DNA from: a plasmid
Strand: one strand, 5' to 3'
Assembly (NCBI RefSeq): GCF_054482525.1
Contig: NZ_JBTHVG010000003.1
Length of the DNA: 64,000 nt
Numbering within the stretch: the stretch's first letter is position 1; each line of letters begins with the position of its first letter. Shown here one piece after another: positions 30,678 to 53,979 of this stretch. The translations under genes were made by a program, and so were the position numbers. The notes beneath the pieces are model-generated. The model saw nothing but the letters and a program-made list of their open reading frames with translations, was not told where the DNA came from and searched no databases.

Positions 30678-30843
30678 ATAACTTGGGCTTTGCGCATTAA
30701 ACCCTTGCCGCAGGCGGTGTACCGCATATCCGGCACAGACAGTCAGTTTTTTCTGGCAGCTTAAATTTGACACTGCTTAATATAGTGATTCATTAAACAG
30801 GTTCAGTATGCTGCCAGAACGTTTTAGTCGTAATGGGCGTCCG

Positions 30844-32343
30844 TTAGTTTTCAACTAACTGAACGACGACCAGCCTGCCGCCTTCCTCCTTTGACAGAAC
30901 AAACTGAGCGTTATTCGTCAGTTCAATTTTTTCCCCAATGGCAATCTGTCGTTTATCCGGTAATGACATAAGCCCATTTATGCCTTCATTTACTAACCAC
31001 CACTGATCGTTATGGAAAACAAAATACCCAACTCGTTTCCTTTGTGCATCGGTTGTGCGCTCATTTGGCGCAATGAGGCGATTCACATGCCACGCATAGA
31101 TTGACTGCCCGCTCCACACCATCAACCGGTGGTCGTCAGGACGATAACTGCCTTCCTTTCGGGATGAATATAAATTTAGAACCGGTAATTTACCCTTGTA
31201 TGGCGTACCGCAGTAGGGACAAACCGGCTTTGTCTTACCTGAGAAAACGTACCATTTCTGTTCACACGCCTTGTTCTGGCAGGGCTGTATCAGATCGACT
31301 GTTTTAACCAGGGCACTTTCCCACTCATCGGCGGTCGGGCGTTTATTGGCATCGTGTAAGCCATCAATAAAGGCGCGTTCAAACAAAGGCGTCAAATAAG
31401 GGCCCATGATGGTGTAAGGAATTTTCTCCGGGTCAGCCCAGGGCAGTGAAAAGGAGGATAGCTGACTGACTTTGACTGCATTGCTTTTGTCTGTCGGATG
31501 TTCAATGAAGAGTGCCTTCTCACCCATAGATAAGGTCTCATCACGTACTTCATCCGACATGTCATGTATTTTTCCGCCACGTAGCGGATGACGGAAGAAC
31601 AGATACATGTAGATAAGCACCGACAGCGCATGACGGTCAGTAGAAATGCTTGGCAATACGCGGTTCGGATCCTCTTTGGAAAGATGGCTGGTTTTCACCA
31701 CTTCCGGAGCGATAAAATCCGGGGTGCCCACGACGTCGGGAGGATACTTTCCAGGGACAACCAGGCCGTCTACGTCAATGATGCAGGCATGTCCCATTTC
31801 TGGATCGATAAGCACGTTTTTATAGCTTAGATCGCTGTGACAGAGACCTGCCGCATGCATCCTTCTGACGGCTCTTGTTAGCAGCAGACAGACCTTGAGA
31901 TAGGTAAGCGTATTGCCTCGTTCACGTAGGTCGAGAAATTTATTCTGGTTGCTGGCGCTGGCAAACCATTTGCCTTCCTTTTCACGGCCTTTTATGCCAA
32001 GAAAATCATCGTTTTTAGAGCCGTATTTAAAGAAAAAGTAGCTTTTGTAGGTTGGAACCACGATGCCGATTTTATCCCCATGCTCAACAACGTGGGTCGG
32101 CCAGCAAAACAGGTCCTTCCAGTATTCACCTCCGGACTGGCCAAAAATGTTTTGCCTGTAGCGTCCGGTGATCATATCAATCCGATCCCGGGCCTGCTCG
32201 TTCTGCGGTTTATGATAAAAAGCGACGACGTATGATTTATCAGGCGAGAAGTAAACATCCTTCATCGAGCCCGAACCAATTACCTCGTCAACATACTGGA
32301 CTGTTTCGCCGTCCTTTGTTTTGCACGTAACAATATTTGCCAT
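30844..32343 (-). CDS. Ser/Thr protein kinase with C-terminal zinc ribbon and FHA-like domain
   Basis: Gly loop GSGSMKDVY, catalytic loop CHSDLSYKNVLI, DVDG, APEVV; Zn ribbon CQNKAC...CPYC; start set at the ATG at 32343 (GGTGA RBS). The ORF-track start at 32397 would overlap the phosphatase gene. Confidence 0.85.
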   Translation of the reverse strand: MANIVTCKTKDGETVQYVDEVIGSGSMKDVYFSPDKSYVVAFYHKPQNEQARDRIDMITGRYRQNIFGQSGGEYWKDLFCWPTHVVEHGDKIGIVVPTYKSYFFFKYGSKNDDFLGIKGREKEGKWFASASNQNKFLDLRERGNTLTYLKVCLLLTRAVRRMHAAGLCHSDLSYKNVLIDPEMGHACIIDVDGLVVPGKYPPDVVGTPDFIAPEVVKTSHLSKEDPNRVLPSISTDRHALSVLIYMYLFFRHPLRGGKIHDMSDEVRDETLSMGEKALFIEHPTDKSNAVKVSQLSSFSLPWADPEKIPYTIMGPYLTPLFERAFIDGLHDANKRPTADEWESALVKTVDLIQPCQNKACEQKWYVFSGKTKPVCPYCGTPYKGKLPVLNLYSSRKEGSYRPDDHRLMVWSGQSIYAWHVNRLIAPNERTTDAQRKRVGYFVFHNDQWWLVNEGINGLMSLPDKRQIAIGEKIELTNNAQFVLSKEEGGRLVVVQLVEN

Positions 32344-32368
32344 ATTGATCACCGAAGAAGCGTATCCC

Positions 32369-34009
32369 TTACCACAACACCGCAATAGTGCGGTCATCGT
32401 GGTTCCCTGTGGAGAAAAAGTTAAGCCAGTCGCCTAACCTCTCAGGCGCAATACTGGCGTCTGTAAGGACAGGGATGAGCTCATCAAGGAGACGGGTCCA
32501 TTTTTCGTCACTGCGAAGCCCGTTATCTGTCTCAAACAGAGGGTCTGATACGCCATCTGTCATGAGGATCAAGTGAGATACATCATTCCATTTACCCACG
32601 CTGATGCGGCCGCTAAACGAGGGGTCTGCGATAATGCTCTGGTCAAGAAAGCGGGTTTGTCCTGCGTATTCTCCGCTATCGGGATTTCCCAGTATCCTGA
32701 CTTTACCGGAAGGGCTGTATGCACCTATCGCACCATCACCAAGCCAGAATGCAGCCGCAAACAGCTCGTTATCAGTTCGTAGCGCTACAGTTGCCAGTAG
32801 GGTTGTTGAATAGGATTTCACAGGTTGTTCTGCACAAATGGCTTCGTTCTGGATACTGTTGACCGCGAGCGTAGCTGCCTGTTTAAAATGATGAAGCATG
32901 GCGTTTATGGTTGCCTGCTGATCGCTCCCTTCCCACGCCGTGATGTGCTGCTTTAGATGGACGCCTTTCAAACCACTGAGCTGATTGAAAAGGTAATCGC
33001 CAGCCGTTTGGACTGCAATCCGGGAGCCTTCCCGGGAATTTACCGCACTACCGGCCCCGTCTGCGACCAGCATGACAGACCATCCTGTTTCCTGGCAGTG
33101 GTTGATATAGAAGTCGTCATCTCTGAAGCTCCCGGCATGCTCATGAGATCGTCCCCGGCGACTGGCGGCAGCAATACGTATGTCACCCCTGACCAGGCCA
33201 GCAGCGTCCAGATGGGACTTAGGGTAGGAAGCGTCTGCTGGTGGCTCTACCACCTTCCACAGGCTTCTCGGATCGGGATTGACTATAAAAAGCTGTTTTG
33301 TTTCGCATTCGTCGTGCGAAGCGCATGACCAGAGTACTGAAAGCTCTATATCGCCGCTTTCGGTGGGTGTACCTGTCAGCAACTTATGCTCTTTGTCAAA
33401 GGTCAGGCCAATGTTCCTGGGAAAGACAACGTCCCTGACAGTAGCCTGCTGGCCCTCATCCAGAACTATAGCAACCGGCGAAGAGAAACGTTCGCCTGCG
33501 CGGGCGTTGGGAATAACTATTTTAGCTCTCGGGGGAACGGCAGGTGGCACAGCTAATCCGGCCCGCTGCTGGCCTGTCGGTATCTGCCCGGGTTTTAATA
33601 CCAGGGAAGACAGGTTTTCGTCTTCCCTCTGTGCTGGTTTATCAAATTCGTAATAAGGCATCAGCTTCCAGAACGGAGGATGAGGTTCATTTTCTGGCAG
33701 GGGTTGCAGTAATGGTGTATCGGTAGCGTCAATGCCCGGGTTATCAGCATCACTTACGACCGTTTGTTGCTGATCGGAAAGGCTGGATGCTGACGAGGGG
33801 GCGATCTCTGCGTCGTTATAACCTTCGCTAACCCGCGCAGATAAACCCTGTGCAAGGCTCTCAATCCGCTCTTTAAGCCGCATAATCTCTTCAGTAAGGG
33901 AAGGGTCGTGCGATAGAAGAAAAAGCCGCTCACCTTCTACAGGGTGGCCCAGCTCAGACAGCACTAAGCGGATAATCTTCTCTTCAAGTAAAACATTTTG
34001 CGACATCAA
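32369..34009 (-). CDS. PP2C-family Ser/Thr phosphatase with long N-terminal extension
   Basis: PP2C motifs VMLVADGAGS and LILMTDGVSDPL; its ATG overlaps the stop of the upstream vWA gene (ATGA). Confidence 0.85.
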   Translation of the reverse strand: MMSQNVLLEEKIIRLVLSELGHPVEGERLFLLSHDPSLTEEIMRLKERIESLAQGLSARVSEGYNDAEIAPSSASSLSDQQQTVVSDADNPGIDATDTPLLQPLPENEPHPPFWKLMPYYEFDKPAQREDENLSSLVLKPGQIPTGQQRAGLAVPPAVPPRAKIVIPNARAGERFSSPVAIVLDEGQQATVRDVVFPRNIGLTFDKEHKLLTGTPTESGDIELSVLWSCASHDECETKQLFIVNPDPRSLWKVVEPPADASYPKSHLDAAGLVRGDIRIAAASRRGRSHEHAGSFRDDDFYINHCQETGWSVMLVADGAGSAVNSREGSRIAVQTAGDYLFNQLSGLKGVHLKQHITAWEGSDQQATINAMLHHFKQAATLAVNSIQNEAICAEQPVKSYSTTLLATVALRTDNELFAAAFWLGDGAIGAYSPSGKVRILGNPDSGEYAGQTRFLDQSIIADPSFSGRISVGKWNDVSHLILMTDGVSDPLFETDNGLRSDEKWTRLLDELIPVLTDASIAPERLGDWLNFFSTGNHDDRTIAVLW

Positions 34010-35046
34010 CCTCTCCCTCTGTTTACGTCGAAGTTAGTGTTTCCGCCATCATTGCTGAATGACAGACCTGTTTCACACCACGGGCAGATCACGTCATCCG
34101 GGCCGTCAATGCACAGCAATTTTCCGCATGAGCACAGGGCAAACGCACTGGCATTACCGCAGTGAGGGCAACCCGGTACGCCATGCAGTTCGCTGGTGTT
34201 TACCTGCAAACCGGTAGCGGTGGCATCTGACCATGCAAAATAGTCTTCATCGATGGGATAGCATCCGGCAATATTAAAGCTGTTCAGGTTCAGGCTGAAA
34301 TCGAGCCCGGAAATCCTTGCTGGTGGCCGTTCATACTTCATCAGATACGGACGACGGGTCTTGCTGCAACGGCCGGTAAGCGTAACGCAGTTTTCGTCGT
34401 ACGCTTTTACTGGCTCGTCCTTGGCCAGCCGGACTATGTATTCAGTCTGGCTGAGCTCAGGTTGTTTGTCGTCTCCGACGCTGCGGCTGTGCGCCGTAAC
34501 CGAGGCTGTGATCCATTTGATGAAGCGGGTAAAGTCCCCTTCCTGAGACTCGGTGAACAGCATGACATTCTCTGTCAGTTGCCGCAGGGTATTCAGGTCC
34601 GCTGACGGCCCCAGGCCAACGGCAATGAGATTCACTTTACTCGCGTAGTGATCCTTCCAGCGCTTCACTTCTGCGGTTGTGTCGTCAGTCGGACGTCCGT
34701 CGGTAAGGAGATACACGACGGGTTTCCAGTCGCCTTTAGCCTCATGAGTGGTTTTTCTGACCTGGGTATCAATTTGTACGGTCAGCTCACGCAATGCGGC
34801 CCCAAGGCTCGTACCGCCGCCAACGGGAAGGCGGGGAGGGTAGAACGAGGCAATTTCGTGAAGAGGTACAATCGTACGGGCTACACCGGCAAATGCGATT
34901 ACCGAAACCCAGGCTGTTTCAAGTGCGTGTGGATCCTTTCTTAAATCTCCGATGATCATTTGCAGACCATCAGTCATTTTTTTCAGGTTTTCACCAATCA
35001 TGGACTCTGAACAGTCCAGGACAAAAAACACGGGAAGGCGTCTCAT
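34006..35046 (-). CDS. TerY-like vWA protein with C-terminal zinc ribbon
   Basis: MRRLPVFFVLDCSESM MIDAS motif; C-terminal CPHC...CSC...CPWC; start moved to the ATG at 35046 with a GAGG RBS. Confidence 0.8.
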   Translation of the reverse strand: MRRLPVFFVLDCSESMIGENLKKMTDGLQMIIGDLRKDPHALETAWVSVIAFAGVARTIVPLHEIASFYPPRLPVGGGTSLGAALRELTVQIDTQVRKTTHEAKGDWKPVVYLLTDGRPTDDTTAEVKRWKDHYASKVNLIAVGLGPSADLNTLRQLTENVMLFTESQEGDFTRFIKWITASVTAHSRSVGDDKQPELSQTEYIVRLAKDEPVKAYDENCVTLTGRCSKTRRPYLMKYERPPARISGLDFSLNLNSFNIAGCYPIDEDYFAWSDATATGLQVNTSELHGVPGCPHCGNASAFALCSCGKLLCIDGPDDVICPWCETGLSFSNDGGNTNFDVNRGRG

Positions 35047-35131
35047 AATTTTCCTCGTACGGCTGGTACGGCCAGCAGAAAACGTTGCTGTACAGAAAGG
35101 TGCTGCCCGGAAAGCAGCACCTTTCTGTCTG

Positions 35132-35770
35132 TCAGAGCACCAGCTGGATTTCTGGTGGAGGAGGGGGAAGGGTATCAGTTCCGTTATTGATCCCCGCGCT
35201 TGTGCTGCCGGAAGACACGCTGGCCGATACCCATTTAAAGAAACCTGCAAACGCGGTTGAATCTAGCGTCTCCAGAGACACAACCTTATCGGTAAGCTGT
35301 TTTAAGTGCTCATGGCCTGCTTTAGGACCAACGGCGCAGGCAATGATGGATCCGAATCCCCGGCCGCGAATCGCTTTTACCGCTTCACCGTACGCCAGGG
35401 CATCAGAAGGGGTTCCATCAGTCATCAGGAATACCAGAGGACGCCAGTCTCCTTTTGTATCACCATCTGAGCGACGTACATCCCGTTCAACACACTGCAT
35501 CAGACATTCAAGGGCAGCACCGGTGAACGTCCCGCCTGCGCTTGGCACAACGATGTCAGAAAACTGGAAGTCTTCCAGCGGCGTGAGAGGAATGAACTCA
35601 CGCGCCTCATTGTCATAGGTGATAATGGAGATATGAACGCTTTCGAGGGCGTAGGGATCCTGGCGAAGAGCGCTAAGCATCGCCTGAATTCCAACGTTAA
35701 CGGAATGGATGGACTCACCGCGCATCGAGCCGGATGTGTCGATAACAAGGTAAACAGGCAGGCGGCGCAT
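35132..35770 (-). CDS. terY: TerY-family vWA protein
   Basis: MRRLPVYLVIDTSGSM MIDAS motif, about 212 aa; its ATG at 35770 overlaps the terX stop (ATGA). Confidence 0.8.
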   Translation of the reverse strand: MRRLPVYLVIDTSGSMRGESIHSVNVGIQAMLSALRQDPYALESVHISIITYDNEAREFIPLTPLEDFQFSDIVVPSAGGTFTGAALECLMQCVERDVRRSDGDTKGDWRPLVFLMTDGTPSDALAYGEAVKAIRGRGFGSIIACAVGPKAGHEHLKQLTDKVVSLETLDSTAFAGFFKWVSASVSSGSTSAGINNGTDTLPPPPPEIQLVL

Positions 35771-36411
35771 CACATGTAATTCCTCAGGTGCGAGACAAAC
35801 GAATCTGATTCTGAAGGCTCACCAATTGCCCTGAGTTTCCAGCCTGTAGCCTCGCGTATCAGCTCGGCAAAAACCATGGAGCGCTGGCTGGCGAAGGCGG
35901 GTCCGCCAGAAAGATCGAATCGTGCCATTTCAATATTACGGGCATCTACTGCCCGGATGAAGGCATTCTGAACTTTACCAAAGTGCTGCTGGAGCTTTTC
36001 ACCATTGTAGATCTGAACGATGAACACAATTTTCTCGTACTGAGCGTCAAGGGAATTCAGGCGCACAATAATTTGCTCATCGTCACCATCACCGGCTCCG
36101 GTTCGGTTATCGCCCGTCAGCCAGATATTTCCTGACTTATGGCGAAGGCTGTTGAAAAAGATGATATCGCCATTCACAAGCGTTGGTTTACCATTTTCCA
36201 CATTGCCGAGATCGGTCACCTTTCCGGCTGAATTACACAGGAAAGCGATCACATCAAGGTCGTATTCTTCTTCTTTTTTACCAAAGATCCCGCCGAGGAA
36301 ACCTTTCTTTTCCTCATTAATATCCCAACCCAGGCCGATAGTAACGGACGAGAGATCGTATTCATTTTTTTTCAGGCTTACGCCCTGGCCTTTGCTCAGA
36401 CTGACAGACAT
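35770..36411 (-). CDS. terX: TerD-family protein TerX
   Basis: TerD-domain hallmarks [13 protein letters not shown] and GDNRTGAGDGDDE; 213 aa; sits between two terY genes. Confidence 0.85.
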   Translation of the reverse strand: MSVSLSKGQGVSLKKNEYDLSSVTIGLGWDINEEKKGFLGGIFGKKEEEYDLDVIAFLCNSAGKVTDLGNVENGKPTLVNGDIIFFNSLRHKSGNIWLTGDNRTGAGDGDDEQIIVRLNSLDAQYEKIVFIVQIYNGEKLQQHFGKVQNAFIRAVDARNIEMARFDLSGGPAFASQRSMVFAELIREATGWKLRAIGEPSESDSFVSHLRNYM

Positions 36412-36433
36412 GACATCCCCTTAATTAATAAAA

Positions 36434-37072
36434 TTATAAGACCACGTTTACTTCTGGCGGCGGCGGTGGCAGGTCTTCAAGACCGATCACTTCTTTTTTG
36501 CTGGACTCCACTTTCTGACTGCCTACCGAAATGCTCGCACTGACCCATTTAAAGAAAGCTTTAATCGTCGAACTGTCAGCTGTATCGAGCTGAACCACGA
36601 TTTCAGTGATTTCTTTGAGGACGCTGGTATCGGCATCATGCCCGGCTGCACATGCCACAACAACGCCGGTTCTGGCCGCTTTAAAGTCATTCAGGCCTTT
36701 ACGCCAGTCATCATTCGGACTTCCATCCGTCATCAGGAATACAAGGGGACGCCAGTCACCTTTAGTGTCAGCCGTCGTTTTCTGTACTTCTTTGGCAATG
36801 GAGCTGGCCGTCAGGGTAAGCGCTTCGCCAAGAGAGGTGGTGCCGCTGGCTGTTAGTGCTGGCATCTGGAAACTCAGGAGGTCTGTCAGGGGGACTGCCT
36901 GTCGGGCTGAAGAATCAAAGGTGATCACTGACACGTAAGCCGTTTCGAGTGCATACGGATCCTGTTTCAGCGTGGTAAGCAGCGTCTGAACGCCATTCTT
37001 AACCGCTTCGATAGGCTCTCCGTGCATAGAGCCGGACGTGTCGAGTAGCAGATATACGGGTAAGCGTCTCAA
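36434..37072 (-). CDS. terY: TerY-family vWA protein
   Basis: (M)RRLPVYLLLDTSGSM; start moved to the TTG at 37072 with an AAGGAA RBS 7 nt upstream. The ORF-track start at 37153 adds an unsupported N-terminal extension. Confidence 0.75.
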   Translation of the reverse strand: MRRLPVYLLLDTSGSMHGEPIEAVKNGVQTLLTTLKQDPYALETAYVSVITFDSSARQAVPLTDLLSFQMPALTASGTTSLGEALTLTASSIAKEVQKTTADTKGDWRPLVFLMTDGSPNDDWRKGLNDFKAARTGVVVACAAGHDADTSVLKEITEIVVQLDTADSSTIKAFFKWVSASISVGSQKVESSKKEVIGLEDLPPPPPEVNVVL

Positions 37073-37496
37073 ATGTAATTCCTTCTTAAGAGATCGGAAG
37101 AGGAGAGTAGTTTCAGGAAGAGGCCAGAGTTTGTAGATTTGATAAAACGGCACGACATCTGTCGGGTGGAGATTAAATACTCAGAAGCGGCATTAAAGAA
37201 ATAAGTTAACCACCATTGAATTACCGACATGTGAATGGCCTCTTATCAGAGAAAAAAATTCAGACCGTACTGGAATATAAATTTCTGAAAAAAACTCCGG
37301 CAAAAATAAACTTTCTTATGTATGAAAATCATCATACATCACAGATCTGCATGAATGGAGTGTAAATCGCCCAAAGATTGATGTGTAGCACAAGAGGATG
37401 TCAAGACACCAGGTTTTGTAGGCAGAAAGGCGCTGCTGACATTGCGGGAGGAGAATAGATCAAAACTCCGTCACGCAGATACAGAGGTGAAATATG

Positions 37497-37520
37497 ACAA
37501 AACCGGGGTTTTCACCCCGG
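37497..37520 (-). terminator. Rho-independent terminator after terW
   Basis: CCGGGG-TTTTCA-CCCCGG (plus-strand reading) with a T-run on the minus strand just downstream of the terW stop. Confidence 0.6.
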
Positions 37521-37534
37521 TCTGAGATTTAGCG

Positions 37535-38002
37535 TCAGGACTTTTTAGCGCTGTATTCTTTTATCAGTTCATCAACGGAGTGCAGAGCCAGCTTCTCTAC
37601 CGCTTCACTTCGGGTCGAGCCACTCAGCGCAGCCAGACGGTCAATTTTTCTTAAAATCCGCATGCGTAGCGATAATGACACGGCTGTTTTTTTATCCTTA
37701 TCGAGTACGACCTTCCCTGTGGACTCACCGGTTTTCAGTTCAGCATTCTGTGCGAGCGCTTCATTCATCCGGCGAAGGGTCTTTTTATCCAGCTGGCCCG
37801 GATTAACGAGATGGTAGGAATGACCTGCCTTGCTGTATTTGATCTCCGCAGAATATGACTCGCGTAGCTCTTTGAGTGCCCGGGTTAATGTCGGCTCTGA
37901 GCATTCCAGACTGGTTATAATGTCGGCAGCGGAAACGGGCTTGCCGGTGCCCAGTAAGTTGGCAAGCTTAAAAATCCGGGCCTGTCTGGTATTTAATTGC
38001 AT
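37535..38002 (-). CDS. terW: TerW, DNA-binding protein of the ter locus
   Basis: 155 aa, HTH-like segment SAADIITSLECSEPTLTRALKELRES; size and position match terW of plasmid and island ter loci. Confidence 0.75.
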   Translation of the reverse strand: MQLNTRQARIFKLANLLGTGKPVSAADIITSLECSEPTLTRALKELRESYSAEIKYSKAGHSYHLVNPGQLDKKTLRRMNEALAQNAELKTGESTGKVVLDKDKKTAVSLSLRMRILRKIDRLAALSGSTRSEAVEKLALHSVDELIKEYSAKKS

Positions 38003-38019: not shown

Positions 38020-39228
38020 TTAAAGGGTTAGTGGTTCAATAGGCTGAAAAATGAAGGTACTGCTCATCTTTCGAATAACCGGGTGATCGCCTAACGCTTC
38101 AACCGGATCAATGTGTTCTAAGCCTGCAAAATTTACTGACGACATCTGGCTGCGACTGCATTTGCAGGACAGGATATACTCATCCTCCAGATAGCCGGTC
38201 CGCTTACTGACCCGTTGCGTAAAGCCTGACACAATCACGTTGTCGAACGGTAGCGTATGTAAAACGATACCGACCAGGCGGAACAAGCAGCCATGGACGT
38301 GGCGGGCATAGTTTTCGCGTACGGCTTTTTGCGTCATGGCTTTTTCCGTCAGCTCCGTGCCCCGGGCATTAACGCCGTAAATCTTATCAGGGAAATCTTC
38401 AATCTCAGCTAAATCAACATCCAGCAGGACTGCTGATAGCTCCGGCTTTACTTCAAATGCAACAAGCGTTTCACGCGGCCATTCAGTTTCTGCCAGCACA
38501 CCCGCCAGGTATGATTCGAAAAACGCGGCGTCTGTCCGGAACTGCTGCCGGGCATCTGCCTGAGCCGTGGCGAGCCGTTTTTCATGTTCTTCAGCCTCAA
38601 ACTTCCAGTTTGCATACTGTTCGGCCCAGGCCGTCCGTTGTTGCTGGTACCGGTGCTGTCGAAGGGTATTCTCACGCTCCACATCAATCAGCTCCTGCTG
38701 CCACCGGCGAAGATTTTCGGCGTGGCGCTCAGCTTTAGCTGATTCCGATTCAAACCATTTACCCAGAAAACTAATGCCTTCGCTCTCGGCAGGCTTTTCC
38801 GGCAATGCAAGATAGTCTGGCTTTTCTGGACGCACCGGTGCCGGAACCTGAAAAGGCGACGTTCTGTTATGCAGGTATACTGCTTCCAGCTCTGCCCAGC
38901 TGATGCCTGTTTTAGGATCCGGCGTCAGCTCGTGAATATTACGGATTGCGGTCACCGCTGACATGAGATCAGCGGCTTCCTCCTCAAGCGCCTGTCTGAG
39001 CCCCGGGTCGGTAGCCGTCCGGTTCCCACCTCCGGAACGCGCGGCCCGATCAAGCCGGGTACGGTAACTCAGCCCGGTACCGGGCAAGCCCAGATTGGCA
39101 TAGGTCCCCCGGCTTCCAAAAGAAACGGAAGCACCTCTCGGCCCGACACTCAGGCTCGGTGCACCGTTACTCAGGTTGAGGCGAACACCAGGAATAATGT
39201 TGATCGACTTTCTGAATCTGAACCCCAT
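38020..39228 (-). CDS. ter-associated protein of unknown function
   Basis: Starts MGFRFRKSINIIPGVRLNLS (DUF4236-like as I recall it); AAGGA RBS; last gene of the biosynthetic operon. Confidence 0.5.
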   Translation of the reverse strand: MGFRFRKSINIIPGVRLNLSNGAPSLSVGPRGASVSFGSRGTYANLGLPGTGLSYRTRLDRAARSGGGNRTATDPGLRQALEEEAADLMSAVTAIRNIHELTPDPKTGISWAELEAVYLHNRTSPFQVPAPVRPEKPDYLALPEKPAESEGISFLGKWFESESAKAERHAENLRRWQQELIDVERENTLRQHRYQQQRTAWAEQYANWKFEAEEHEKRLATAQADARQQFRTDAAFFESYLAGVLAETEWPRETLVAFEVKPELSAVLLDVDLAEIEDFPDKIYGVNARGTELTEKAMTQKAVRENYARHVHGCLFRLVGIVLHTLPFDNVIVSGFTQRVSKRTGYLEDEYILSCKCSRSQMSSVNFAGLEHIDPVEALGDHPVIRKMSSTFIFQPIEPLTL

Positions 39229-39238
39229 TATGATTTCC

Positions 39239-40195
39239 TTAATGATGCTGGGTCACGGTAAGTAATCTGATTCCATCAGCGCTTTGCTCGTTCTGTAACC
39301 CATAAAAACGAGCTCTGTCCAGAATGCCAGCCGCCCAGCGGCGATGTGTGGCGGGTTCACACATTGCTCCCTGCGACTTAAACACGGCCTGGGTAGAGTT
39401 CAGGATCCGCAGAGCGTCAGAATGCTCACCCTGAGTGACCATCAGCGCGTTTTGAATGACCTCTATCTGACCCGGGTGAATGGCCGTTTTCCCAACAAGC
39501 CCATGTGCCATATCAAGAGCCAGCTCTCTGGCCATTACGGCATGATCGTCAATATGCTCACATACGGGCGCGGTCAGGGCAAAATCACGCGGGCCGAAGA
39601 CCGAAACGAGCATTTTGATGACGTAGCCCATCGGGCTGTCATACAGCGTCAGGTCCCGGGGACGGCGAAGCGACACAACGTTCATAAGATCGTTGCCGCC
39701 GATTCGAAGCGCAATAATGCGGTCGTGGCAGGGATGTTCCACCAGACGGGTGGCCAGCTCCCGCATCTGAACCACGTCAAAGACGTCTTCTGTTTCCAGC
39801 GTTGGCATCATGCACAGGTGAGTCCCGCCCATGATATCCCACCATTCAGCTAACGAACTGAGGGTAAATTTCGGCAACACAAACCCGTCGACAGCGGAAA
39901 GATCATAATGCGCTTTTAACCATCTGCCCATTTCGGCATGCCGGGGGCGAATGAACACCAGAGGCCAGTCATTTTTACCCAGGCTATGCATGCTGTTACT
40001 GAGCTCGTGCAGCAGGTGCTCCAGATTTTTGAGGGCGACGGGGATGTCTGCTTCACTGACAGCATCCTCCAGGCAAATCACCAGAGAGCGCAAACCCGGG
40101 ATTTTCCCGTGCAGGACGGCATCAGCAATATCTTCCCGTGTTGCAGGCATGTATAGCGTGGCTCCCAGATTCCAGGGAGAAAGACGATTTTTCAT
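39239..40195 (-). CDS. HpcH/HpaI aldolase / citrate lyase beta-like TIM-barrel enzyme
   Basis: Citrate-lyase-beta-like sequence (…LVICLEDAV…) ; its ATG at 40195 overlaps the stop of the upstream PRTase-like gene (ATGA). Confidence 0.65.
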   Translation of the reverse strand: MKNRLSPWNLGATLYMPATREDIADAVLHGKIPGLRSLVICLEDAVSEADIPVALKNLEHLLHELSNSMHSLGKNDWPLVFIRPRHAEMGRWLKAHYDLSAVDGFVLPKFTLSSLAEWWDIMGGTHLCMMPTLETEDVFDVVQMRELATRLVEHPCHDRIIALRIGGNDLMNVVSLRRPRDLTLYDSPMGYVIKMLVSVFGPRDFALTAPVCEHIDDHAVMARELALDMAHGLVGKTAIHPGQIEVIQNALMVTQGEHSDALRILNSTQAVFKSQGAMCEPATHRRWAAGILDRARFYGLQNEQSADGIRLLTVTQHH

Positions 40196-41274
40196 CAAAG
40201 TACCTTCTTGATAATGGTTACAGCCCGATACTGGCCGAGGGTTCCCCCCATTTCTGTAACAACTATTCCCTTTTCACGAGCAAGCCCTACAAGCAAGGCA
40301 ACGTCCGAGTCGTCAATAGAACGCACAAATACATGGTCCGGTACCCGACGTAATACAGCCCGGGTTGCTTCAGCAATACCGGGTTTTATACGATTGACGC
40401 TGTCCACTTTAAATTCATCGGCCAGGAACGCGATAACGTCGCGACTTGTCTGCCATAAGACCCGGGCTGACTCCGTATTCCAGCTCAGGGGAGCGAGGGA
40501 TGACGGGGTTAACTTCTTACGGAAATGAGCGACGGTATCGACAAGCATCCGGCTGCATTCGAATTCACTGAGATGCTCGCAAACCATGCACCCGTGTAAT
40601 CCTTCAGAGGACCACACTGACCGGGAGATCAGGCCTGACACCGGCGCACCCATGATGCCAAAAGGAATGAGCCAGTCATCATCACTGGCTGCAAGCCAGG
40701 AGCAGCCACAGGGATCGGCCAGGACAACCAGTCGCGGCTGCTCAGGATAGCCCGGGCGATCTTTCAGTGCGCGTACAAGCTCTCCGGTAATTGCGCCTTT
40801 ACCTGTCCATCCGTCAACAAAGACAATACCGCTGGTACCATGCCGCTCTTCAATGACGTCGAGGGCTGCACCGTCAATTCCACGATCCCGGATAATGCTG
40901 ATACCGTAATGCCATGAGGTTTTCCCCATGTCACGCAGGGCCTGGTGCAGCATAACGCCGAGCGGCACGCCAGCCCTGACAAGACTGGCCAGTACAATGG
41001 GCTCATCACCAAAGCGTTTGGCCAGAGCAATAGCGAGCTGTGTGACTTCTTTTGCAAGTCTCTCTGCGCCCCGATCCAGCGCCCGGTGAAACAAATCAAG
41101 ATGCCATTGTGTTGGCGCTGGCTCCTGACTGAGCATGTCCGAATAATGTTTCTTCCCTGACTGAATCAGCTCTTCTTTTTGCTCAACCGGCGTCATCTCA
41201 ATGACAACCGGCTTTAGCAGAAATTCCACGTCACCGGGCTGGTATGAGCCGGTAAATGTGTCATGTGGCTGCAT
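40195..41274 (-). CDS. Phosphoribosyltransferase-like protein (ter-associated)
   Basis: PRPP-binding-like segment GIVFVDGWTGKGAITGEL; ATG at 41274 lies 1 nt after the HAD stop. Confidence 0.55.
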   Translation of the reverse strand: MQPHDTFTGSYQPGDVEFLLKPVVIEMTPVEQKEELIQSGKKHYSDMLSQEPAPTQWHLDLFHRALDRGAERLAKEVTQLAIALAKRFGDEPIVLASLVRAGVPLGVMLHQALRDMGKTSWHYGISIIRDRGIDGAALDVIEERHGTSGIVFVDGWTGKGAITGELVRALKDRPGYPEQPRLVVLADPCGCSWLAASDDDWLIPFGIMGAPVSGLISRSVWSSEGLHGCMVCEHLSEFECSRMLVDTVAHFRKKLTPSSLAPLSWNTESARVLWQTSRDVIAFLADEFKVDSVNRIKPGIAEATRAVLRRVPDHVFVRSIDDSDVALLVGLAREKGIVVTEMGGTLGQYRAVTIIKKVL

Positions 41275-41275
41275 T

Positions 41276-42049
41276 TTAATTTTCTCCAAAAATTCGCTGT
41301 GAAATGGCATCTGCAAACTGACTCTGACGCGGGATGCCAAACCAGCTGCACAGTTTCATAAAACGATGATCGCTCAGGCTGTCGCCCAGGCCAATTACGG
41401 GGAAGACTCCGCGTTCAGCCCGAAGTTTTTCAAGCAGCCATCTGACTGCCAGCCCTTTCTCAACCGGGGTGGGAAGCCAGGCCACGTTATTACTGTTGCG
41501 GTGGATGTAGAAGCCCTCGGTCGGAAACACCGTTTCTATCTCATCTGCAATGGCATTAAGCTCGTCAAGGCGGGTGCTGTCGCGGTGCTTCATCACCATA
41601 TAAACCGCCGTTTCACCGTATTCGAAGTTCAGCCTTGCCCAGGCATTGATCCCTTTTGCGTCCATCATTTCAGTGATCAGACGCTGCATCGATGTCAGCT
41701 TTTCCTGGTAGGGAGCCAGCTGGCCAAGCATATGGGCCTTCCACTCCTCGTCGGGTTTGCCTTCAGGCGTGAGAATGACGGCCCCGTGCGTGGTGATTGC
41801 CCAGGAGTGGAAAGGGATCCGGACGCGGCTGATTTCTTCAGTTCCCCGGGCGGTAACAGGTATGAGTTCAGCCTGCTCCAGGAGCCAGTCCACCAACATG
41901 GACTGTTCTTCCGTCATAAAGCTTCGTGGATTCAGGGTGCGATCAACGGCACCGGTACGGAATGGCTCCAGGGCCAGCTCGTCCACCATTTTACGACGGG
42001 TCTGAAAGAGCGTGTCGTCAAGGTCGCTCAGAACAACGGGTTTATTCAT
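41276..42049 (-). CDS. HAD-superfamily hydrolase
   Basis: Motif I VVLSDLDDTLF; start moved to the ATG at 42049 (MNKPVV...), which overlaps the 3' end of the upstream PRTase gene. Confidence 0.8.
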   Translation of the reverse strand: MNKPVVLSDLDDTLFQTRRKMVDELALEPFRTGAVDRTLNPRSFMTEEQSMLVDWLLEQAELIPVTARGTEEISRVRIPFHSWAITTHGAVILTPEGKPDEEWKAHMLGQLAPYQEKLTSMQRLITEMMDAKGINAWARLNFEYGETAVYMVMKHRDSTRLDELNAIADEIETVFPTEGFYIHRNSNNVAWLPTPVEKGLAVRWLLEKLRAERGVFPVIGLGDSLSDHRFMKLCSWFGIPRQSQFADAISQRIFGEN

Positions 42050-43184
42050 AGGTAACAATCTCCACGACGGGCGCAACCTCAGCCAGGGCTTTAAGAAGCT
42101 GCGTGTCAATACTTTCTGCGGGTGTCTCAGTACACACAAGAATACGGTCAAACTGCTGGTGGGCGACGTTATAGACAAAATTGGGGATGCCCAGCCCGTA
42201 GTTATCCGTAAAGGAAATGGCGGACTCAATGGCATAACCAACGGCGATAGGGGAGCGGGTGGTCGAACCATAAAGTGCCTGTGCTCCGGCAGCTTCGAGC
42301 CGTTCAGCAAGCAGGAACGGCTCCCAGACGAATTCCCCGGTCCCGAGAACCAGAATACGTTCCCCCTTGCGGACGGAGACCTCATGGCCGAGATCGGCCG
42401 CAGGTGCGAGCATCCCCAGTCGACCCCAGGACTGTTTTCCCAGGATGTCCCATTCTCCGCGTGAAGTTACGTTGACTTTCGGCATGTCCGGGACAGGTGC
42501 ATCAGGTAATGGGGTCCATCCCCACTGACCGCTTACAAGCGAAACCGAAGTGACGGGCAAGGATGTGCGCTCCGACAGGGCGTTGCTACTCCAGTCGGTA
42601 AGCGTAACGGCGATAACCTGTTCAATATGTTGAAGCTTGCCGGTATTACGCAGGGCAGAAAGCAGGTTAATAAAGGTATTACCGGTGGTTGCCTCGTCAT
42701 CAATCAAAACCAGCGTTCGTGCGTTGGTAACACGACGTCTTTTCTCTTCATCATCTGGCAGATAGATCAGATGATCGGTGGCGTGGCTGTGTTCTTCCTT
42801 GAACTCGCAAAGTAACGTGCCATCAACCGGGTGACGGGTAGAGGTCAGATAGACAGATTCACGATGCTGGTGGCGCACTTCATCAAACACACCGGCCCCT
42901 AGCCCAACGGCGGTTTCAGCCATACCGATAAAAAGTACGGGCCCTGTCAGCGTTGCGGGGAACTGGCTGGCAAGCTGTCTGTAGGCCTGCCGCATGACTG
43001 AGGGTGGCACGGGAATGTGCCTGCCGAGTACTTTGCTGACAAACAGAAAGGCGCGTTTCGGGTTACGTCTTTCAGCGATATCAAACAGGTCATCGAGCGA
43101 AACATCACCCTGGTCGCGGGTTACCTGTATCGTACCGCATGAGAGGGTACGGCGATAAATCATATCTTCGAGGGTATCAGACAT
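42042..43184 (-). CDS. Phosphoribosyltransferase (PRTase)
   Basis: Canonical PRPP-binding motif TLVLIDDEATTGNT; ATG at 43184 lies 9 nt after the ATP-grasp stop. Confidence 0.8.
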   Translation of the reverse strand: MSDTLEDMIYRRTLSCGTIQVTRDQGDVSLDDLFDIAERRNPKRAFLFVSKVLGRHIPVPPSVMRQAYRQLASQFPATLTGPVLFIGMAETAVGLGAGVFDEVRHQHRESVYLTSTRHPVDGTLLCEFKEEHSHATDHLIYLPDDEEKRRRVTNARTLVLIDDEATTGNTFINLLSALRNTGKLQHIEQVIAVTLTDWSSNALSERTSLPVTSVSLVSGQWGWTPLPDAPVPDMPKVNVTSRGEWDILGKQSWGRLGMLAPAADLGHEVSVRKGERILVLGTGEFVWEPFLLAERLEAAGAQALYGSTTRSPIAVGYAIESAISFTDNYGLGIPNFVYNVAHQQFDRILVCTETPAESIDTQLLKALAEVAPVVEIVTYE

Positions 43185-43193
43185 AAACACGCC

Positions 43194-44252
43194 TTAATTC
43201 AGATGGTTAGAGAGTGATTCCGGGTAAACGATGACATCTGTGATGGATCTCACTGCAACCGGAGAAAAGGTATTTCTGGCGCTCTGGATCACCGCATCTT
43301 CAGACATCAGACCGAGCTTAAAGGCAGCAAACAACCCGGGAAGGTTCACCCCGCTGTGAAGGGTATAACCCACCCCGCCTGACGGACGCATGTTGGTTTC
43401 AAGCAGCACCGGGTTGCCATTCACATCGTTTCGCGTCTGAACATTCACCAGCCCGTCGGCCTTCATAACCCGGGCGCAGTCACAAGCCAGTTCCCAGGCG
43501 CTTCCTTCGTTTACCAGATACTGGATAGCCCCTTCCTTACGGCGTCCCACGGCTGCGAGTATTTCGCCCTTATCCGCGAGGATATCGACGGAAAATTCCG
43601 GGCCTGGCAGGTACGGCATCAAAACAAGGGGTTTAAACGACTCAGAAGCCGATGCTGCTGCAATATACTGTTGCGGACTGACCAGACGATGTTCGGGATG
43701 ATTAAAGACGGCCATGGGCGAAGCACTGTCATCAAAGCGCCAGAATCCCATGCCATAGATACCCGTCACCGGCTTCACGCATACCGGGCTGTCCGAGAAC
43801 GGCGGGGCCGCGAGGTGCGTCTTTAATTCTGCCAGCGTATTCACCCGCCAGGACGGTACGACCGGGAGCCCGTTTTGCTCCATAAACTGAGCAAAAGTAA
43901 CTTTTTCGTCAGCCAGAGTTAACCAGTCGACGCCTGTTGCACCGGTAGTAAGGGTGGCTCCGGTCGATTCAATGGCTGAACGGTGTTCTTCAAACCACTG
44001 GCTGTTACGGCCAGTATGAATATGGTGGATGCCGTAGGTCTGAATGGTTTCCTGAATAAACTGAAGACGTTTTTGAGGATCTTCAGGTTCAGTCAAAGAA
44101 TAATCGGCAACGGAAAGAATTTCATGTCTTTCGTTACGGTGGGAGGCAAATACGGTAATAGCAAAATTATTTTTTTGTGCAAATGATTTTACCCCCTGAA
44201 TAATATCTCGCTGGGAGGACAAACCTTCCATAAACCAAATTTTCTTGTTCAT
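43194..44252 (-). CDS. ATP-grasp enzyme
   Basis: ATP-grasp-like core with Gly-rich and acidic segments (…VLLETNMRPSGG…); first gene of the operon, divergent from terZ. Confidence 0.7.
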   Translation of the reverse strand: MNKKIWFMEGLSSQRDIIQGVKSFAQKNNFAITVFASHRNERHEILSVADYSLTEPEDPQKRLQFIQETIQTYGIHHIHTGRNSQWFEEHRSAIESTGATLTTGATGVDWLTLADEKVTFAQFMEQNGLPVVPSWRVNTLAELKTHLAAPPFSDSPVCVKPVTGIYGMGFWRFDDSASPMAVFNHPEHRLVSPQQYIAAASASESFKPLVLMPYLPGPEFSVDILADKGEILAAVGRRKEGAIQYLVNEGSAWELACDCARVMKADGLVNVQTRNDVNGNPVLLETNMRPSGGVGYTLHSGVNLPGLFAAFKLGLMSEDAVIQSARNTFSPVAVRSITDVIVYPESLSNHLN

Positions 44253-44575: not shown

Positions 44576-45157
44576 ATGGTTTCATTAAGTAAGAACCAGA
44601 CGGTATCACTCAGCAAAGAATCTTCAGCATTAAGCCAGCTTCAATTCGGTCTCGGTTGGGATCCGGTTAAGAAAAAAGGTCTTCTTGGAGGATTGTTTGG
44701 AGGCAACGACTCAATCGATCTCGATGCTGGCTGCGTATTAATGGACAGCACCGGTAAAACAATTGACACCATCTGGTTCCGCAAACTGGAATCCACCTGC
44801 GGCGCTGTTGTGCACAGTGGCGATAACCTGACCGGTGAGGGTGACGGTGACGATGAGGTGATTAAGGTCAACCTCTCCCGACTGCCTGCAAACGTTGAAT
44901 ACCTGGCGTTTACGGTAAACAGCTTCCGTGGTCAGTCGTTCAATGACGTCGAAAACGCGTTCTGCCGCGTTGTCGATCAAACCGGCAAAGAGCTGGCTCG
45001 CTACAAGCTGACTGAGCAGGGCTCACATACCGGGATCGTTATTTCTTCGCTGCGCCGTAATAACGGCAACTGGGACTTTACCGCCCTTGGCCATGCCTGT
45101 CGCGGCCGCACAATTGACGATATGCACTCCGATATCGTTTCAGCGGTTATTCGCTAA
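44576..45157 (+). CDS. terZ: Tellurium resistance protein TerZ
   Basis: TerD domain ([13 protein letters not shown]), 193 aa, first gene of the Z-A-B-C-D-E order. Confidence 0.9.
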   Translation: MVSLSKNQTVSLSKESSALSQLQFGLGWDPVKKKGLLGGLFGGNDSIDLDAGCVLMDSTGKTIDTIWFRKLESTCGAVVHSGDNLTGEGDGDDEVIKVNLSRLPANVEYLAFTVNSFRGQSFNDVENAFCRVVDQTGKELARYKLTEQGSHTGIVISSLRRNNGNWDFTALGHACRGRTIDDMHSDIVSAVIR

Positions 45158-46314: not shown

Positions 46315-46336
46315 CACAGCAACAAAGGAAACAGGT

Positions 46337-46792: not shown

Positions 46793-46814
46793 TCCACATC
46801 CCTAAGGGTAAAAT

Positions 46815-47855: not shown

Positions 47856-47903
47856 TCCCCTGAAGTGTTAACCTGAACAATTACTAATCGAAGAGGTTAT
47901 TTT

Positions 47904-48482: not shown

Positions 48483-48549
48483 TCGAAAAGTAACTTTTCA
48501 CCCGGGGCTGTTAATGCAGCCCTCATTCAACTGTTTGCAGGAGCTAAAA

Positions 48550-53975: not shown

Positions 53976-53979
53976 CGAT

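What the first reader, a model, noticed from the sequence alone, without database searches (positions are those of the whole stretch)
30844..37072. ter-linked signalling module: two TerY vWA proteins, TerX, and a vWA-Zn-ribbon / PP2C phosphatase / Ser-Thr kinase triad
Six co-oriented genes with start/stop overlaps (terX to terY, vWA to PP2C) combine MIDAS-containing vWA proteins with a eukaryote-type kinase (plus zinc ribbon and FHA-like domain) and a PP2C phosphatase. Comparative genomics has predicted this arrangement as a phospho-signalling switch attached to ter loci, but its ligand, targets and phenotype are not established to my knowledge. ter-bearing elements have historically been linked to phage-inhibition and colicin-resistance phenotypes.
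Basis: partly seen in the sequence, partly recalled or inferred. Interest (0 to 1): 0.55.

Follow-up and report, generated by a model that had tools for sequence, protein, structure and literature searches.

The report
Ter-linked kinase/phosphatase/vWA signalling cassette

Summary
There are six co-oriented minus-strand genes:
- terY1 (vWA)
- terX (TerD family)
- terY2 (vWA)
- terY3 (vWA + TerY_C)
- a PP2C phosphatase

Two junctions are TGATG stop/start overlaps. The DNA is 100% identical to hundreds of IncHI2 plasmids. The genes are already named, and the arrangement is the published "TerY-P triad" prediction.

- The six-gene order is kept across Proteobacteria, Bacteroidota and Myxococcota, with the kinase at least 61% identical.
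- It nearly always sits next to TerD-family genes and much less often next to TerC.
- About two thirds of ter-positive E. coli genomes lack the triad, including O157:H7. This fits the block being dispensable for tellurite resistance, although no phenotype was read here.
- The phosphatase has a hypervariable N-terminus and an Ig-like module.
- TerY1 and TerY2 end in an invariant LPPPPPE tail.

The triad is not a member of the experimentally validated anti-phage TerY-P family. PADLOC and NCBIfam models miss it, BLASTP finds no significant similarity, and the kinase has FHA where that family has an OB fold.

Most likely it is a reversible phospho-switch acting on TerY/TerD assemblies. This is an inference. 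The finding is known and of modest interest.

The parts
37274..37303 (-). sigma-70-like promoter candidate (TTGCCG-18-TATATT) about 200 nt upstream of terY1
   Evidence: Consensus scan. Matches were no more frequent than in shuffles, so this is only a candidate. terW upstream has its own terminator at 37500-37523, so a separate promoter for the block is expected.
36434..37072 (-). terY1: 212-aa vWA protein with a complete MIDAS motif (D11-x-S13-x-S15, T79, D116) and the C-terminal tail LPPPPPEVNVVL
   Evidence: The tail is conserved in 54 of 54 orthologues. It is 33% identical to E. coli YegL.
35770..36411 (-). terX: 213-aa TerD-family protein carrying the GDN(R)TG..GDGDDE motif that I recognise, from my own knowledge, as the Ca2+-binding motif of TerD proteins
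   Evidence: phmmer against PDB: 3IBZ at 1.5e-37 and 2KXT at 1.8e-33. RefSeq names it 'TerD family protein'.
35132..35770 (-). terY2: 212-aa vWA/MIDAS protein with the tail LPPPPPEIQLVL; its start overlaps the terX stop (TGATG)
   Evidence: The tail is conserved in 64 of 64 orthologues.
35092..35128 (-). perfect 17-bp stem-loop in the 85-nt terY2-terY3 spacer; likely a partial terminator or RNA-stability element separating two sub-operons
   Evidence: RNA fold: -41.2 kcal/mol for 101 nt, z = -4.7, 0 of 200 shuffles as stable. A strong hairpin of different sequence, often with a U-tract, occupies the same spacer in most of the 17 Enterobacterales-type loci (two have only a 21-nt spacer and none). 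No Rfam match.
34006..35046 (-). terY3: 346 aa. vWA/MIDAS (aa 6-160; 34567-35031) plus the cysteine-rich TerY_C metal-binding domain (aa 217-346; 34009-34398)
   Evidence: Pfam VWA 3.2e-13 and TerY_C 4.5e-53. MIDAS alignment.
32369..34006 (-). PP2C phosphatase, 545 aa. Hypervariable N-terminus (aa 1-165), Ig-like He_PIG/cadherin-like module (aa ~165-250; 33257-33511) and PP2C_2 catalytic domain (aa 284-529; 32420-33157). Its start overlaps the terY3 stop (TGATG)
   Evidence: Pfam PP2C_2 1.8e-46. Ig-like module: profile A4 hits the S. aureus SraP cadherin-like modules (4M03) at 9.8e-9, and Pfam He_PIG is found in 7 of 14 orthologues at E<=0.1. Per-segment median identity is 17/23/33/39/47%.
30844..32343 (-). 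Ser/Thr kinase, 499 aa. ePK domain (aa 1-350; 31294-32343), four-Cys zinc ribbon (aa 351-384; 31192-31293) and FHA-fold domain (aa 385-499; 30847-31191)
30685..30704 (-). weak terminator-like hairpin about 140 nt after the kinase stop
   Evidence: Pattern scan, (6-bp stem, poor U-tract). Candidate only.
37500..38002 (-). context: terW (37535-38002) and its strong intrinsic terminator (37500-37523), which marks the upstream boundary of the block
   Evidence: In the O157:H7 island the ter locus ends exactly after terW.

Best explanation
The region is the terY1-terX-terY2 | terY3-PP2C-kinase accessory block of the IncHI2 ter locus. It pairs a "TerY-P triad" with a TerD-family protein and two short vWA proteins.

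Most likely mechanism (inferred, not shown):
- It is a reversible Ser/Thr phospho-switch that controls how the MIDAS-containing TerY proteins and TerD-family proteins assemble or act.
- The kinase looks catalytically competent. It has HxD...N, APE, and a D-x-D variant of DFG like E. coli YegI. It would autophosphorylate and/or phosphorylate a TerY or TerD partner when a divalent-metal, envelope-stress or infection cue is sensed through the vWA/TerY_C metal sites.
- The kinase's own FHA-fold domain would then read a phospho-site, or dock a partner tail, to lock or oligomerise the complex.
- The PP2C would reset the switch. Its Ig-like module and fast-evolving N-terminus would provide partner recognition.

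The block modulates the ter system and is probably not needed for tellurite resistance.
For: Shown here:
- Domain content and intact catalytic and MIDAS residues.
- Translational coupling through TGATG junctions.
- The six-gene order is kept in 39 of 57 informative loci spanning several phyla, with the kinase 61-88% identical.
- 53 of 57 loci carry a TerD-family gene within 10 kb. Only 7 of 57 carry TerC and 22 of 57 carry the ATP-grasp/PRTase/StiP/HpcH genes.
- Thiorhodococcus has TerD plus the six genes and no other ter gene nearby.
- The invariant LPPPPPE tails on TerY1 and TerY2 look like docking peptides.

From the literature:
- The distant E. coli homologues YegI and PphC are an active Mn2+-dependent autophosphorylating kinase with a DSD motif and a PP2C-like phosphatase. 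They sit in one operon with the vWA protein YegL (10.1101/819920; homology).
- The TerY-P triad was proposed as a metal-sensing phosphorylation switch (PMC11090510, citing Anantharaman 2012).

Likely dispensable for tellurite resistance:
- terZABCD is present in 1013 E. coli genomes, the triad in 337.
- The O157:H7 island ends at terW.
Against: - No substrate, ligand or phenotype is known for this subfamily.
- The FHA-like domain lacks the canonical phosphothreonine-binding Arg and Ser. The position expected for the GR arginine is Q/K/L/R, and SxxH reads Y/F/H-x-W-H. Phospho-reading is therefore uncertain.
- The canonical beta3 lysine is not clearly placed. Position 44 is K/R/H, and a conserved K28 sits in the Gly-rich loop.
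- 4 of 57 loci have the triad without any TerD-family gene within 10 kb.
- Relatives exist outside a ter context.
Confidence: 0.55

Rival explanations
1. The block is an autonomous anti-phage defence system of the TerY-P kind that merely sits beside ter. The vWA, Ig-like or FHA domains would sense a phage product, and the kinase would phosphorylate host or phage targets to stop infection.
For: - Architecturally analogous stand-alone triads protect against T7-like and Autographiviridae phages (PMC7699616; 10.1101/2022.08.12.503731).
- TerY-P triads are embedded in CoCoNuT restriction systems (PMC11090510).
- The block is horizontally mobile across phyla.
- It can occur with only TerD and no TerC.
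- The PP2C N-terminus is hypervariable, as expected of an arms-race surface.
- IncHI2 ter regions carry a phage-inhibition phenotype (PMC12054061, citing Whelan 1995).
Against: - No PADLOC or NCBIfam TerY-P model hits any of the six proteins, while the same PADLOC models hit the validated E. coli G3/10 system at 1e-108 to 1e-265.
- BLASTP between the two triads gives nothing significant.
- The kinase C-terminus is a zinc ribbon plus FHA, not an OB fold.
- The phage-inhibition phenotype was mapped to terZ, terC and terD insertions, not to this block (PMC12054061).
- The flanks examined were not defence islands.
- The hypervariable segment looks largely low-complexity or linker-like.
Confidence: 0.22
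2. The block regulates the neighbouring ATP-grasp/PRTase/StiP/HpcH gene set, which has been predicted to make a nucleoside-like metabolite, by phosphorylating one of its enzymes.
For: - Directly adjacent in the window (38020-44252) and in Enterobacterales, Acinetobacter, Ignatzschineria and Methylococcaceae loci.
- In a betaproteobacterial locus the kinase is followed by HAD and two PRTase_3 genes.
Against: - Only 22 of 57 informative loci have any of these genes within 10 kb.
- The O157:H7 island keeps the biosynthetic genes but has lost the block.
- Chromatiaceae and Burkholderiaceae loci have the block without them.
Confidence: 0.1
3. The kinase and phosphatase are vestigial or inactive passengers kept only by linkage on a successful plasmid.
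For: About two thirds of ter-positive E. coli lack the triad. One plasmid carries an IS inside terY3 (H1).
Against: - The kinase is 61-88% identical across phyla, with invariant catalytic residues.
- 1203 of 1302 plasmid records keep at least 80% of the block.
- The PP2C metal-binding DG motifs are intact.
Confidence: 0.05

Closest known systems
TerY-P (TerY-phosphorylation) triad as defined by comparative genomics (Anantharaman, Iyer & Aravind 2012; summarised in PMC11090510 and PMC4978471)
   Same: A TerY-like vWA protein, a PP2C phosphatase and a Ser/Thr kinase with a C-terminal zinc ribbon, in one co-oriented operon and linked to ter genes. The family name derives from this plasmid lineage's terY.
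   Different: Nothing essential: this locus is a founding example. I could not find the following details in the papers I could read: the FHA fold after the zinc ribbon, the Ig-like module in the PP2C, and the LPPPPPE tails.
Experimentally validated anti-phage TerY-P (Gao et al. 2020; E. coli G3/10 homologue at L089 7001-10260; PADLOC models TerY/PP2C/STK_OB; P. aeruginosa variant of Costa et al.)
   Same: Same three-part logic: vWA + PP2C + Ser/Thr kinase, same gene order, tight operon.
   Different: - No significant sequence similarity, and no model hits (against control).
- The validated vWA lacks TerY_C.
- Its PP2C is 239 aa, without the N-terminal extension.
[quoted passage not shown]
- It is stand-alone beside a type I R-M system and is not linked to TerD genes.
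E. coli K-12 YegL-PphC(YegK)-YegI
   Same: - Homologous triad. The vWA proteins are 29-33% identical (E 4e-19 and 3e-25). The kinase C-lobe plus the CPxC region aligns at E 3e-5, and the PP2C core at E 2e-5.
- Both kinases replace DFG with D-x-D.
- YegI is an active, Mn2+-preferring, autophosphorylating kinase (10.1101/819920).
   Different: - YegI is 648 aa, reported to be membrane-associated, and has no FHA-like domain detected here.
- PphC lacks the Ig-like and N-terminal region.
- YegL lacks both TerY_C and the LPPPPPE tail.
- No TerD partner is present.
FHA-containing checkpoint kinases and bacterial STK/FHA pairs (Rad53, Chk2; PknB-GarA/FhaA)
   Different: Here the FHA is C-terminal, follows a zinc ribbon, is invisible to Pfam FHA and lacks the canonical GR and SxxH serine residues.

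Membership tests
TerY-P triad (comparative-genomics definition) | TerY-like vWA protein with MIDAS motif (here also the TerY_C domain) | tested here: met
   Pfam VWA 3.2e-13 and TerY_C 4.5e-53. DxSxS/T/D are invariant.
TerY-P triad (comparative-genomics definition) | PP2C-type phosphatase encoded next to the vWA gene | tested here: met
   PP2C_2 1.8e-46. TGATG overlap with terY3.
TerY-P triad (comparative-genomics definition) | Ser/Thr kinase with a C-terminal zinc ribbon | tested here: met
   Pkinase 1e-9. Foldseek hits to kinases at 1e-10. Four invariant Cys and zinc-ribbon-only PDB hits.
TerY-P triad (comparative-genomics definition) | Conserved three-gene operon across genomes | tested here: met
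   Y3 plus PP2C lie upstream of the kinase in 52 of 57 informative loci.
Validated anti-phage TerY-P (PADLOC / NCBIfam 'TerY-P anti-phage system') | Proteins match the PADLOC TerY, PP2C and STK_OB models or the NCBIfam TerY-P models | tested here: not met
   No hits even at E<=10. Positive control: the E. coli G3/10 system hits at 3.5e-173, 5.6e-108 and 9e-265.
Validated anti-phage TerY-P (PADLOC / NCBIfam 'TerY-P anti-phage system') | Kinase fused to a C-terminal OB fold | tested here: not met
   The C-terminus is a zinc ribbon plus an FHA fold. The OB-fold description is from PMC11090510.
Validated anti-phage TerY-P (PADLOC / NCBIfam 'TerY-P anti-phage system') | Confers resistance to phage when expressed | not testable with these tools
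   Needs plaque assays. No report was found for the ter-linked form.
FHA domain | FHA beta-sandwich fold | tested here: met
FHA domain | Canonical phosphothreonine-binding residues (GR Arg, SxxH Ser/His, NG Asn) | tested here: inconclusive
   His419 (50 of 52) and Asn452 (49 of 52) are conserved. The position expected for Arg is Q/K/L/R, and the position expected for Ser is Y/F/H. The register was inferred from sequence and secondary structure, because model coordinates could not be inspected.
FHA domain | Match to the Pfam FHA profile | tested here: not met
   No FHA hit at E<=10. The PDB sequence profile search found only zinc ribbons.
TerD family (terX) | Sequence homology to TerD proteins of solved structure | tested here: met
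   3IBZ at 1.5e-37 and 2KXT at 1.8e-33. The GDNRTG..GDGDDE motif is visible in the translation.
Hanks-type (eukaryote-like) Ser/Thr kinase | Catalytic loop HxD..N, Mg-binding DFG, and APE | tested here: met
   H169 (46 of 52), D171 (49 of 52), N176 (45 of 52) and A212/P213/E214 (49-52 of 52). DFG is replaced by D190-x-D192 (41 and 48 of 52), as in active YegI (10.1101/819920).
Hanks-type (eukaryote-like) Ser/Thr kinase | Beta3 'VAIK' lysine | tested here: inconclusive
   Position 44 is K/R/H (H in the window, followed by K45). A conserved K28 (41 of 52) lies in the Gly-rich loop. Resolving this needs inspection of the 3-D model.

The most novel reading that the evidence does not exclude
The ter locus as a whole is a multi-component infection and envelope-stress response. 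In this reading the terY1-X-Y2-Y3-PP2C-kinase cassette is its sensor and gate. A phage- or colicin-triggered ion or metal flux would be read by the MIDAS, TerY_C and TerD Ca2+ sites. The kinase, with its non-canonical FHA domain, would convert that signal into a phosphorylation state that switches TerD-family effectors on. The cassette would therefore be a TerD-coupled immune signalling module distinct from the OB-fold TerY-P defence systems.
Probability: 0.2. Interest if true: 0.7.

Novelty: already known. Interest (0 to 1): 0.33.

Why it matters
- The ter locus is one of the most widespread accessory loci on IncHI2 multiresistance plasmids and on pathogen islands. It matched 1302 plasmid records and about 19% of complete E. 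coli genomes. Its natural function is still debated: tellurite, zinc/manganese, oxidative stress, phage and colicin have all been proposed.
- The kinase/phosphatase block is the only part of the locus that looks like a signalling device. Finding its input and substrates would be a direct route to what ter actually senses.
- The conservation data narrow the search to TerY and TerD-family proteins rather than TerC, and they suggest concrete handles: the LPPPPPE tails, the FHA-fold domain and the Ig-like module.
- The distinction from the validated anti-phage TerY-P family matters for annotation. Defence-system finders will not, and should not yet, call this block a defence system.

Tried and rejected
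- PADLOC and NCBIfam scans of all six proteins for TerY-P models found nothing. I first suspected the library lacked such models. I rejected that after recovering the validated E. coli G3/10 TerY-P locus from a sequence fragment in a paper supplement and showing that PADLOC hits it strongly.
- Pfam on the PP2C N-terminal region found nothing for the window protein itself. The Ig-like assignment rests on a profile hit to SraP and weak He_PIG hits in orthologues.
- I considered a WNK-like \"lysine in the glycine loop\" reading of K28. I left it open because position 44 is K/R in most homologues.
- The search for related loci with the 52-sequence alignment failed because no stretch was conserved enough. 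It worked with a 12-sequence alignment.
- Anantharaman 2012 and Whelan 1995 could not be read. Their content is cited only through papers that summarise them.
- The literature searches that combined tellurite resistance with anti-phage and TerD, or TerY with PP2C and kinase, found no functional study of this block. The search for TerY with FHA returned only unrelated papers.
- Rfam found no known RNA in the region.
- The promoter and terminator scan was not enriched over shuffles.


Full report
**What is there**

The stretch 30844-37072 carries six co-oriented genes on the minus strand. A megablast of the region finds 1302 plasmid records. Of these, 735 are at least 99% identical, and they are overwhelmingly conjugative IncHI2-type plasmids of Escherichia, Enterobacter, Salmonella and Klebsiella.

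The literature already names the genes terW-terY1-terX-terY2-terY3 (PMC11003894; 10.1101/334409; written 'terY-CYXYW' in PMC12054061). The phosphatase and kinase are unnamed.

The gene coordinates are:
- terY1, 36434-37072 (TTG start)
- terX, 35770-36411
- terY2, 35132-35770
- terY3, 34006-35046
- PP2C, 32369-34006
- kinase, 30844-32343

Both claimed overlaps exist. They are TGATG junctions, where the stop TGA and the start ATG share the A.

The window also holds the rest of the locus:
- terW, 37535-38002
- DUF4236, HpcH-like, StiP, a hypothetical gene, PRTase and ATP-grasp genes, 38020-44252
- terZABCDEF, 44576-50795

**Domain check**

- terY3: VWA (3.2e-13) plus TerY_C (4.5e-53).
- Phosphatase: PP2C_2 over aa 284-529 (1.8e-46).
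- Kinase: Pkinase over the C-lobe (1e-9).
- terX: matches the solved TerD structures 3IBZ and 2KXT at 1e-37 and 1e-33.
- The three TerY proteins and E. coli YegL share invariant MIDAS residues D-x-S-x-S, T and D.

The kinase was modelled with AlphaFold2 from a 52-sequence alignment of homologues 32-86% identical. The model has mean pLDDT 95.1 and pTM 0.94. Its first ~350 residues superpose on eukaryotic protein kinases such as phosphorylase kinase and CaMKII (Foldseek ~1e-10).

Four cysteines (C355, C360, C375, C378) are conserved across the 52 homologues (two invariant, two in at least 90%; all four invariant in the 31-sequence C-terminal alignment). A profile of the C-terminal 150 residues hits only zinc ribbons in the PDB, namely Cox5B and eS31.

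The domain is not canonical. His419 and Asn452 are nearly invariant, but the positions expected for the phosphate-binding Arg and Ser are Q/K/L/R and Y/F/H. Whether it binds phosphothreonine is open.

The kinase catalytic residues are conserved: H169-x-D171...N176 and A212-P213-E214. DFG is replaced by D190-x-D192. E. coli YegI has the same feature: its DSD motif is required for activity (10.1101/819920).

**Additional anatomy**

- **Phosphatase N-terminus.** The catalytic domain is preceded by 283 residues without a Pfam match. Across 73 orthologues, residues 1-165 are hypervariable (median 17-23% identity). The catalytic domain is 47% identical and the kinase 66%.
- **Ig-like module.** Residues ~165-250 form a conserved module whose profile hits the cadherin-like Ig modules of S. 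aureus SraP (4M03, 9.8e-9). Seven of 14 orthologues also give weak Pfam He_PIG hits.
- **TerY tails.** TerY1 and TerY2 both end in LPPPPPE-[VI]-x-[VL]-V-[LI]. A run of prolines in the last 22 residues is present in 54 of 54 and 64 of 64 orthologues. It is absent from TerY3, YegL and the validated TerY-P vWA protein. It looks like a docking peptide, which is an inference.
- **Hairpin.** Between terY2 and terY3 lies an 85-nt spacer with a perfect 17-bp hairpin (35092-35128; z = -4.7). Most of the 17 Enterobacterales-type loci (L009-L025) have a strong hairpin of different sequence in the same spacer, several followed by a U-tract; two have only a 21-nt spacer and none. In those genomes the block probably consists of two sub-operons separated by an attenuating structure.
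- **Upstream boundary.** terW has its own strong terminator at 37500-37523.

**Conservation and linkage**

- **Family size.** The kinase family is sizeable. In the 1.84-billion-protein representative library, 338 clusters at 50% identity match with E<=1e-30.
- **Species range.** The best 80 span Gamma-, Beta-, Alpha- and Epsilonproteobacteria, Bacteroidota, Myxococcota and an Erysipelotrichia MAG, with the kinase 61-88% identical.
- **Method.** I labelled the ORFs in these loci by BLASTP against the window's own ter proteins.
- **Gene order.** Of 57 loci with at least 5.5 kb upstream of the kinase, 39 have the complete Y1-X-Y2-Y3-PP2C-kinase order and 52 have Y3 plus PP2C.
- **Neighbours.** 53 of the 57 have at least one TerD-family gene, and 36 have a further TerD paralogue. 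Only 7 have TerC within 10 kb, and 22 have the biosynthetic genes.
- **Pfam-annotated examples.** These show the same pattern.
  - Thiorhodococcus drewsii has TerD plus the six genes and nothing else from ter.
  - A betaproteobacterium has TerC-TerD, the six genes, then HAD and two PRTase genes.
  - Ignatzschineria has the block fused to a full ter locus.

The block is thus co-conserved with TerD-family proteins specifically.

The reverse does not hold. Among 5426 complete E. coli genomes, terZABCD is present in 1013 (697 chromosomal places). The triad is present in only 337, and 294 of its places are on plasmids. In O157:H7 strain 86-24 the island keeps terW, the biosynthetic genes and terZABCDE, but ends in IS66 elements right after terW. 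By my own knowledge, O157:H7 is tellurite resistant, which is the basis of CT-SMAC selection. If so, the block is not needed for resistance.

**Relation to known systems**

The arrangement is the 'TerY-P triad' of Anantharaman et al. 2012, as described in PMC11090510 and PMC4978471. It was proposed there as a metal-sensing phosphorylation switch, and membership by that definition is met on all features.

A separate question is whether it belongs to the TerY-P family shown experimentally to defend against phage:
- Gao et al. 2020 reported defence against T7-like phages (summarised in PMC7699616).
- Costa et al. reported a P. aeruginosa variant that is active against Autographiviridae and does not collapse the culture (10.1101/2022.08.12.503731).
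- PMC11090510 points out that the validated modules have a kinase-OB-fold fusion.

To test membership, I recovered the E. coli G3/10 homologue used by Stokar-Avihail et al. from the fragment printed in their supplement.
- NCBI annotates its three genes as 'TerY-P anti-phage system' proteins.
- PADLOC's TerY, PP2C and STK_OB models hit them at 3.5e-173, 5.6e-108 and 9e-265.
- The same libraries give no hit for any of the window's proteins, even at E<=10.
- Pairwise BLASTP between the two triads is not significant.

The window's triad is therefore an architectural analogue and at best a very distant relative. It is not a member of the validated defence family.

The E. coli K-12 YegL-PphC-YegI triad is detectably homologous: the vWA proteins are 29-33% identical, the kinase aligns at E 3e-5 and the PP2C at E 2e-5. 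It is the closest biochemically studied relative. YegI autophosphorylates, prefers Mn2+ and follows second-order kinetics (10.1101/819920).

Relatives of the kinase outside ter contexts lack the FHA domain. In one metagenome contig the FHA-like part is a separate ORF.

**How it most likely works**

Shown:
- A kinase and a PP2C that both look catalytically competent.
- Three MIDAS vWA proteins and one TerD-family protein.
- Translational coupling between genes.
- Deep conservation of gene order, and linkage to TerD-family genes.

Inferred:
- The block is a reversible phospho-switch acting on TerY/TerD assemblies.
- The vWA and TerY_C metal sites, and TerD proteins, provide the input.
- The kinase's FHA-fold domain and the phosphatase's Ig-like module provide partner recognition.
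- The LPPPPPE tails serve as docking elements.

I put this at about 0.55. The main rival is an autonomous TerY-P-like anti-phage system that uses TerD as a partner (about 0.2). The analogy to validated systems and the hypervariable phosphatase N-terminus favour it. The failed membership tests and the mapping of the phage phenotype to the core ter genes count against it. A role as regulator of the adjacent metabolite genes (about 0.1) fits only a minority of loci.

**Verdict**

The open question of function is real and testable. The details found here narrow the search but do not change the picture:
- FHA fold confirmed.
- Ig-like module in the phosphatase.
- Invariant proline tails on TerY1 and TerY2.
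- Linkage centred on TerD-family genes.
- A natural deletion in O157:H7.
- Non-membership in the validated defence family.

Novelty: already known. Interest: about 0.33.

Noticed in passing
window 35092-35128 (- strand): Perfect 17-bp stem-loop in the terY2-terY3 spacer (z = -4.7). A hairpin of different sequence, several with U-tracts, occupies the same spacer in most of the 17 Enterobacterales-type loci (two have only a 21-nt spacer and none), while most other lineages have a short spacer without one.
   Followed up: partly
window 36434-36475 and 35132-35173 (C-termini of terY1 and terY2): Both short TerY proteins end in LPPPPPE-[VI]-x-[VL]-V-[LI]. This tail is conserved in every orthologue examined (54/54 and 64/64) but is absent from TerY3, YegL and the validated TerY-P vWA protein. 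It is a candidate docking motif.
   Followed up: partly
window 33257-33511 (PP2C aa ~165-250) and 33512-34006 (aa 1-165): The phosphatase carries an Ig-like He_PIG/cadherin-like module (profile hit to SraP 4M03, 1e-8) in what appears to be a cytoplasmic protein. This module is preceded by a hypervariable N-terminus (17-23% median identity, against 66% for the kinase).
   Followed up: partly
L090 (E. coli O157:H7 86-24, NZ_CP038408.1 2215291-2251194): The chromosomal ter island keeps terW, the biosynthetic genes and terZABCDE, but IS66 elements replace everything beyond terW, so the six-gene block is missing. Across complete E. coli genomes, 1013 carry terZABCD and only 337 carry the triad.
   Followed up: yes
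plasmid NZ_CP047547.1 (hit H1): The block matches in two pieces, with an IS4-like ISVsa5 transposase annotated where terY3 should be. This looks like a natural insertion mutant of the triad on an otherwise identical plasmid.
   Followed up: no
L091 147-1706 (metagenome contig): A 380-aa kinase plus zinc ribbon is followed by a separate 131-aa ORF homologous to the FHA-like domain (41% identity, E 1e-15). This is either a gene split or a frameshift.
   Followed up: partly
L092 4515-10143 (metagenome contig): A related cassette, VWA-VWA-PP2C-kinase(525 aa)-kinase(380 aa), has no TerD gene. The triad family therefore also exists outside ter contexts, with a duplicated kinase.
   Followed up: no
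window 38020-44252 (- strand): Between terW and terZ lie DUF4236, HpcH/aldolase-like, StiP cysteine protease, a 258-aa hypothetical, PRTase and ATP-grasp genes. This is the gene set predicted in the literature to make a nucleoside-like metabolite. It co-occurs with the block in only 22 of 57 loci.
   Followed up: partly
window ~53680-55300 (by offset from L001 42839-44462): By offset from the identical plasmid, an HTH regulator plus a HipA-family toxin pair, followed by an HNH endonuclease gene, should lie downstream of terF. I did not check these positions in the window itself.
   Followed up: no
kinase aa 28 and 44-45 (window ~32209-32262): The usual beta3 'VAIK' lysine is not obvious: position 44 is K/R/H across the family, and H then K in the window. 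A conserved lysine (K28) sits in the glycine-rich loop, reminiscent of WNK kinases. This is unresolved without model coordinates.
   Followed up: partly
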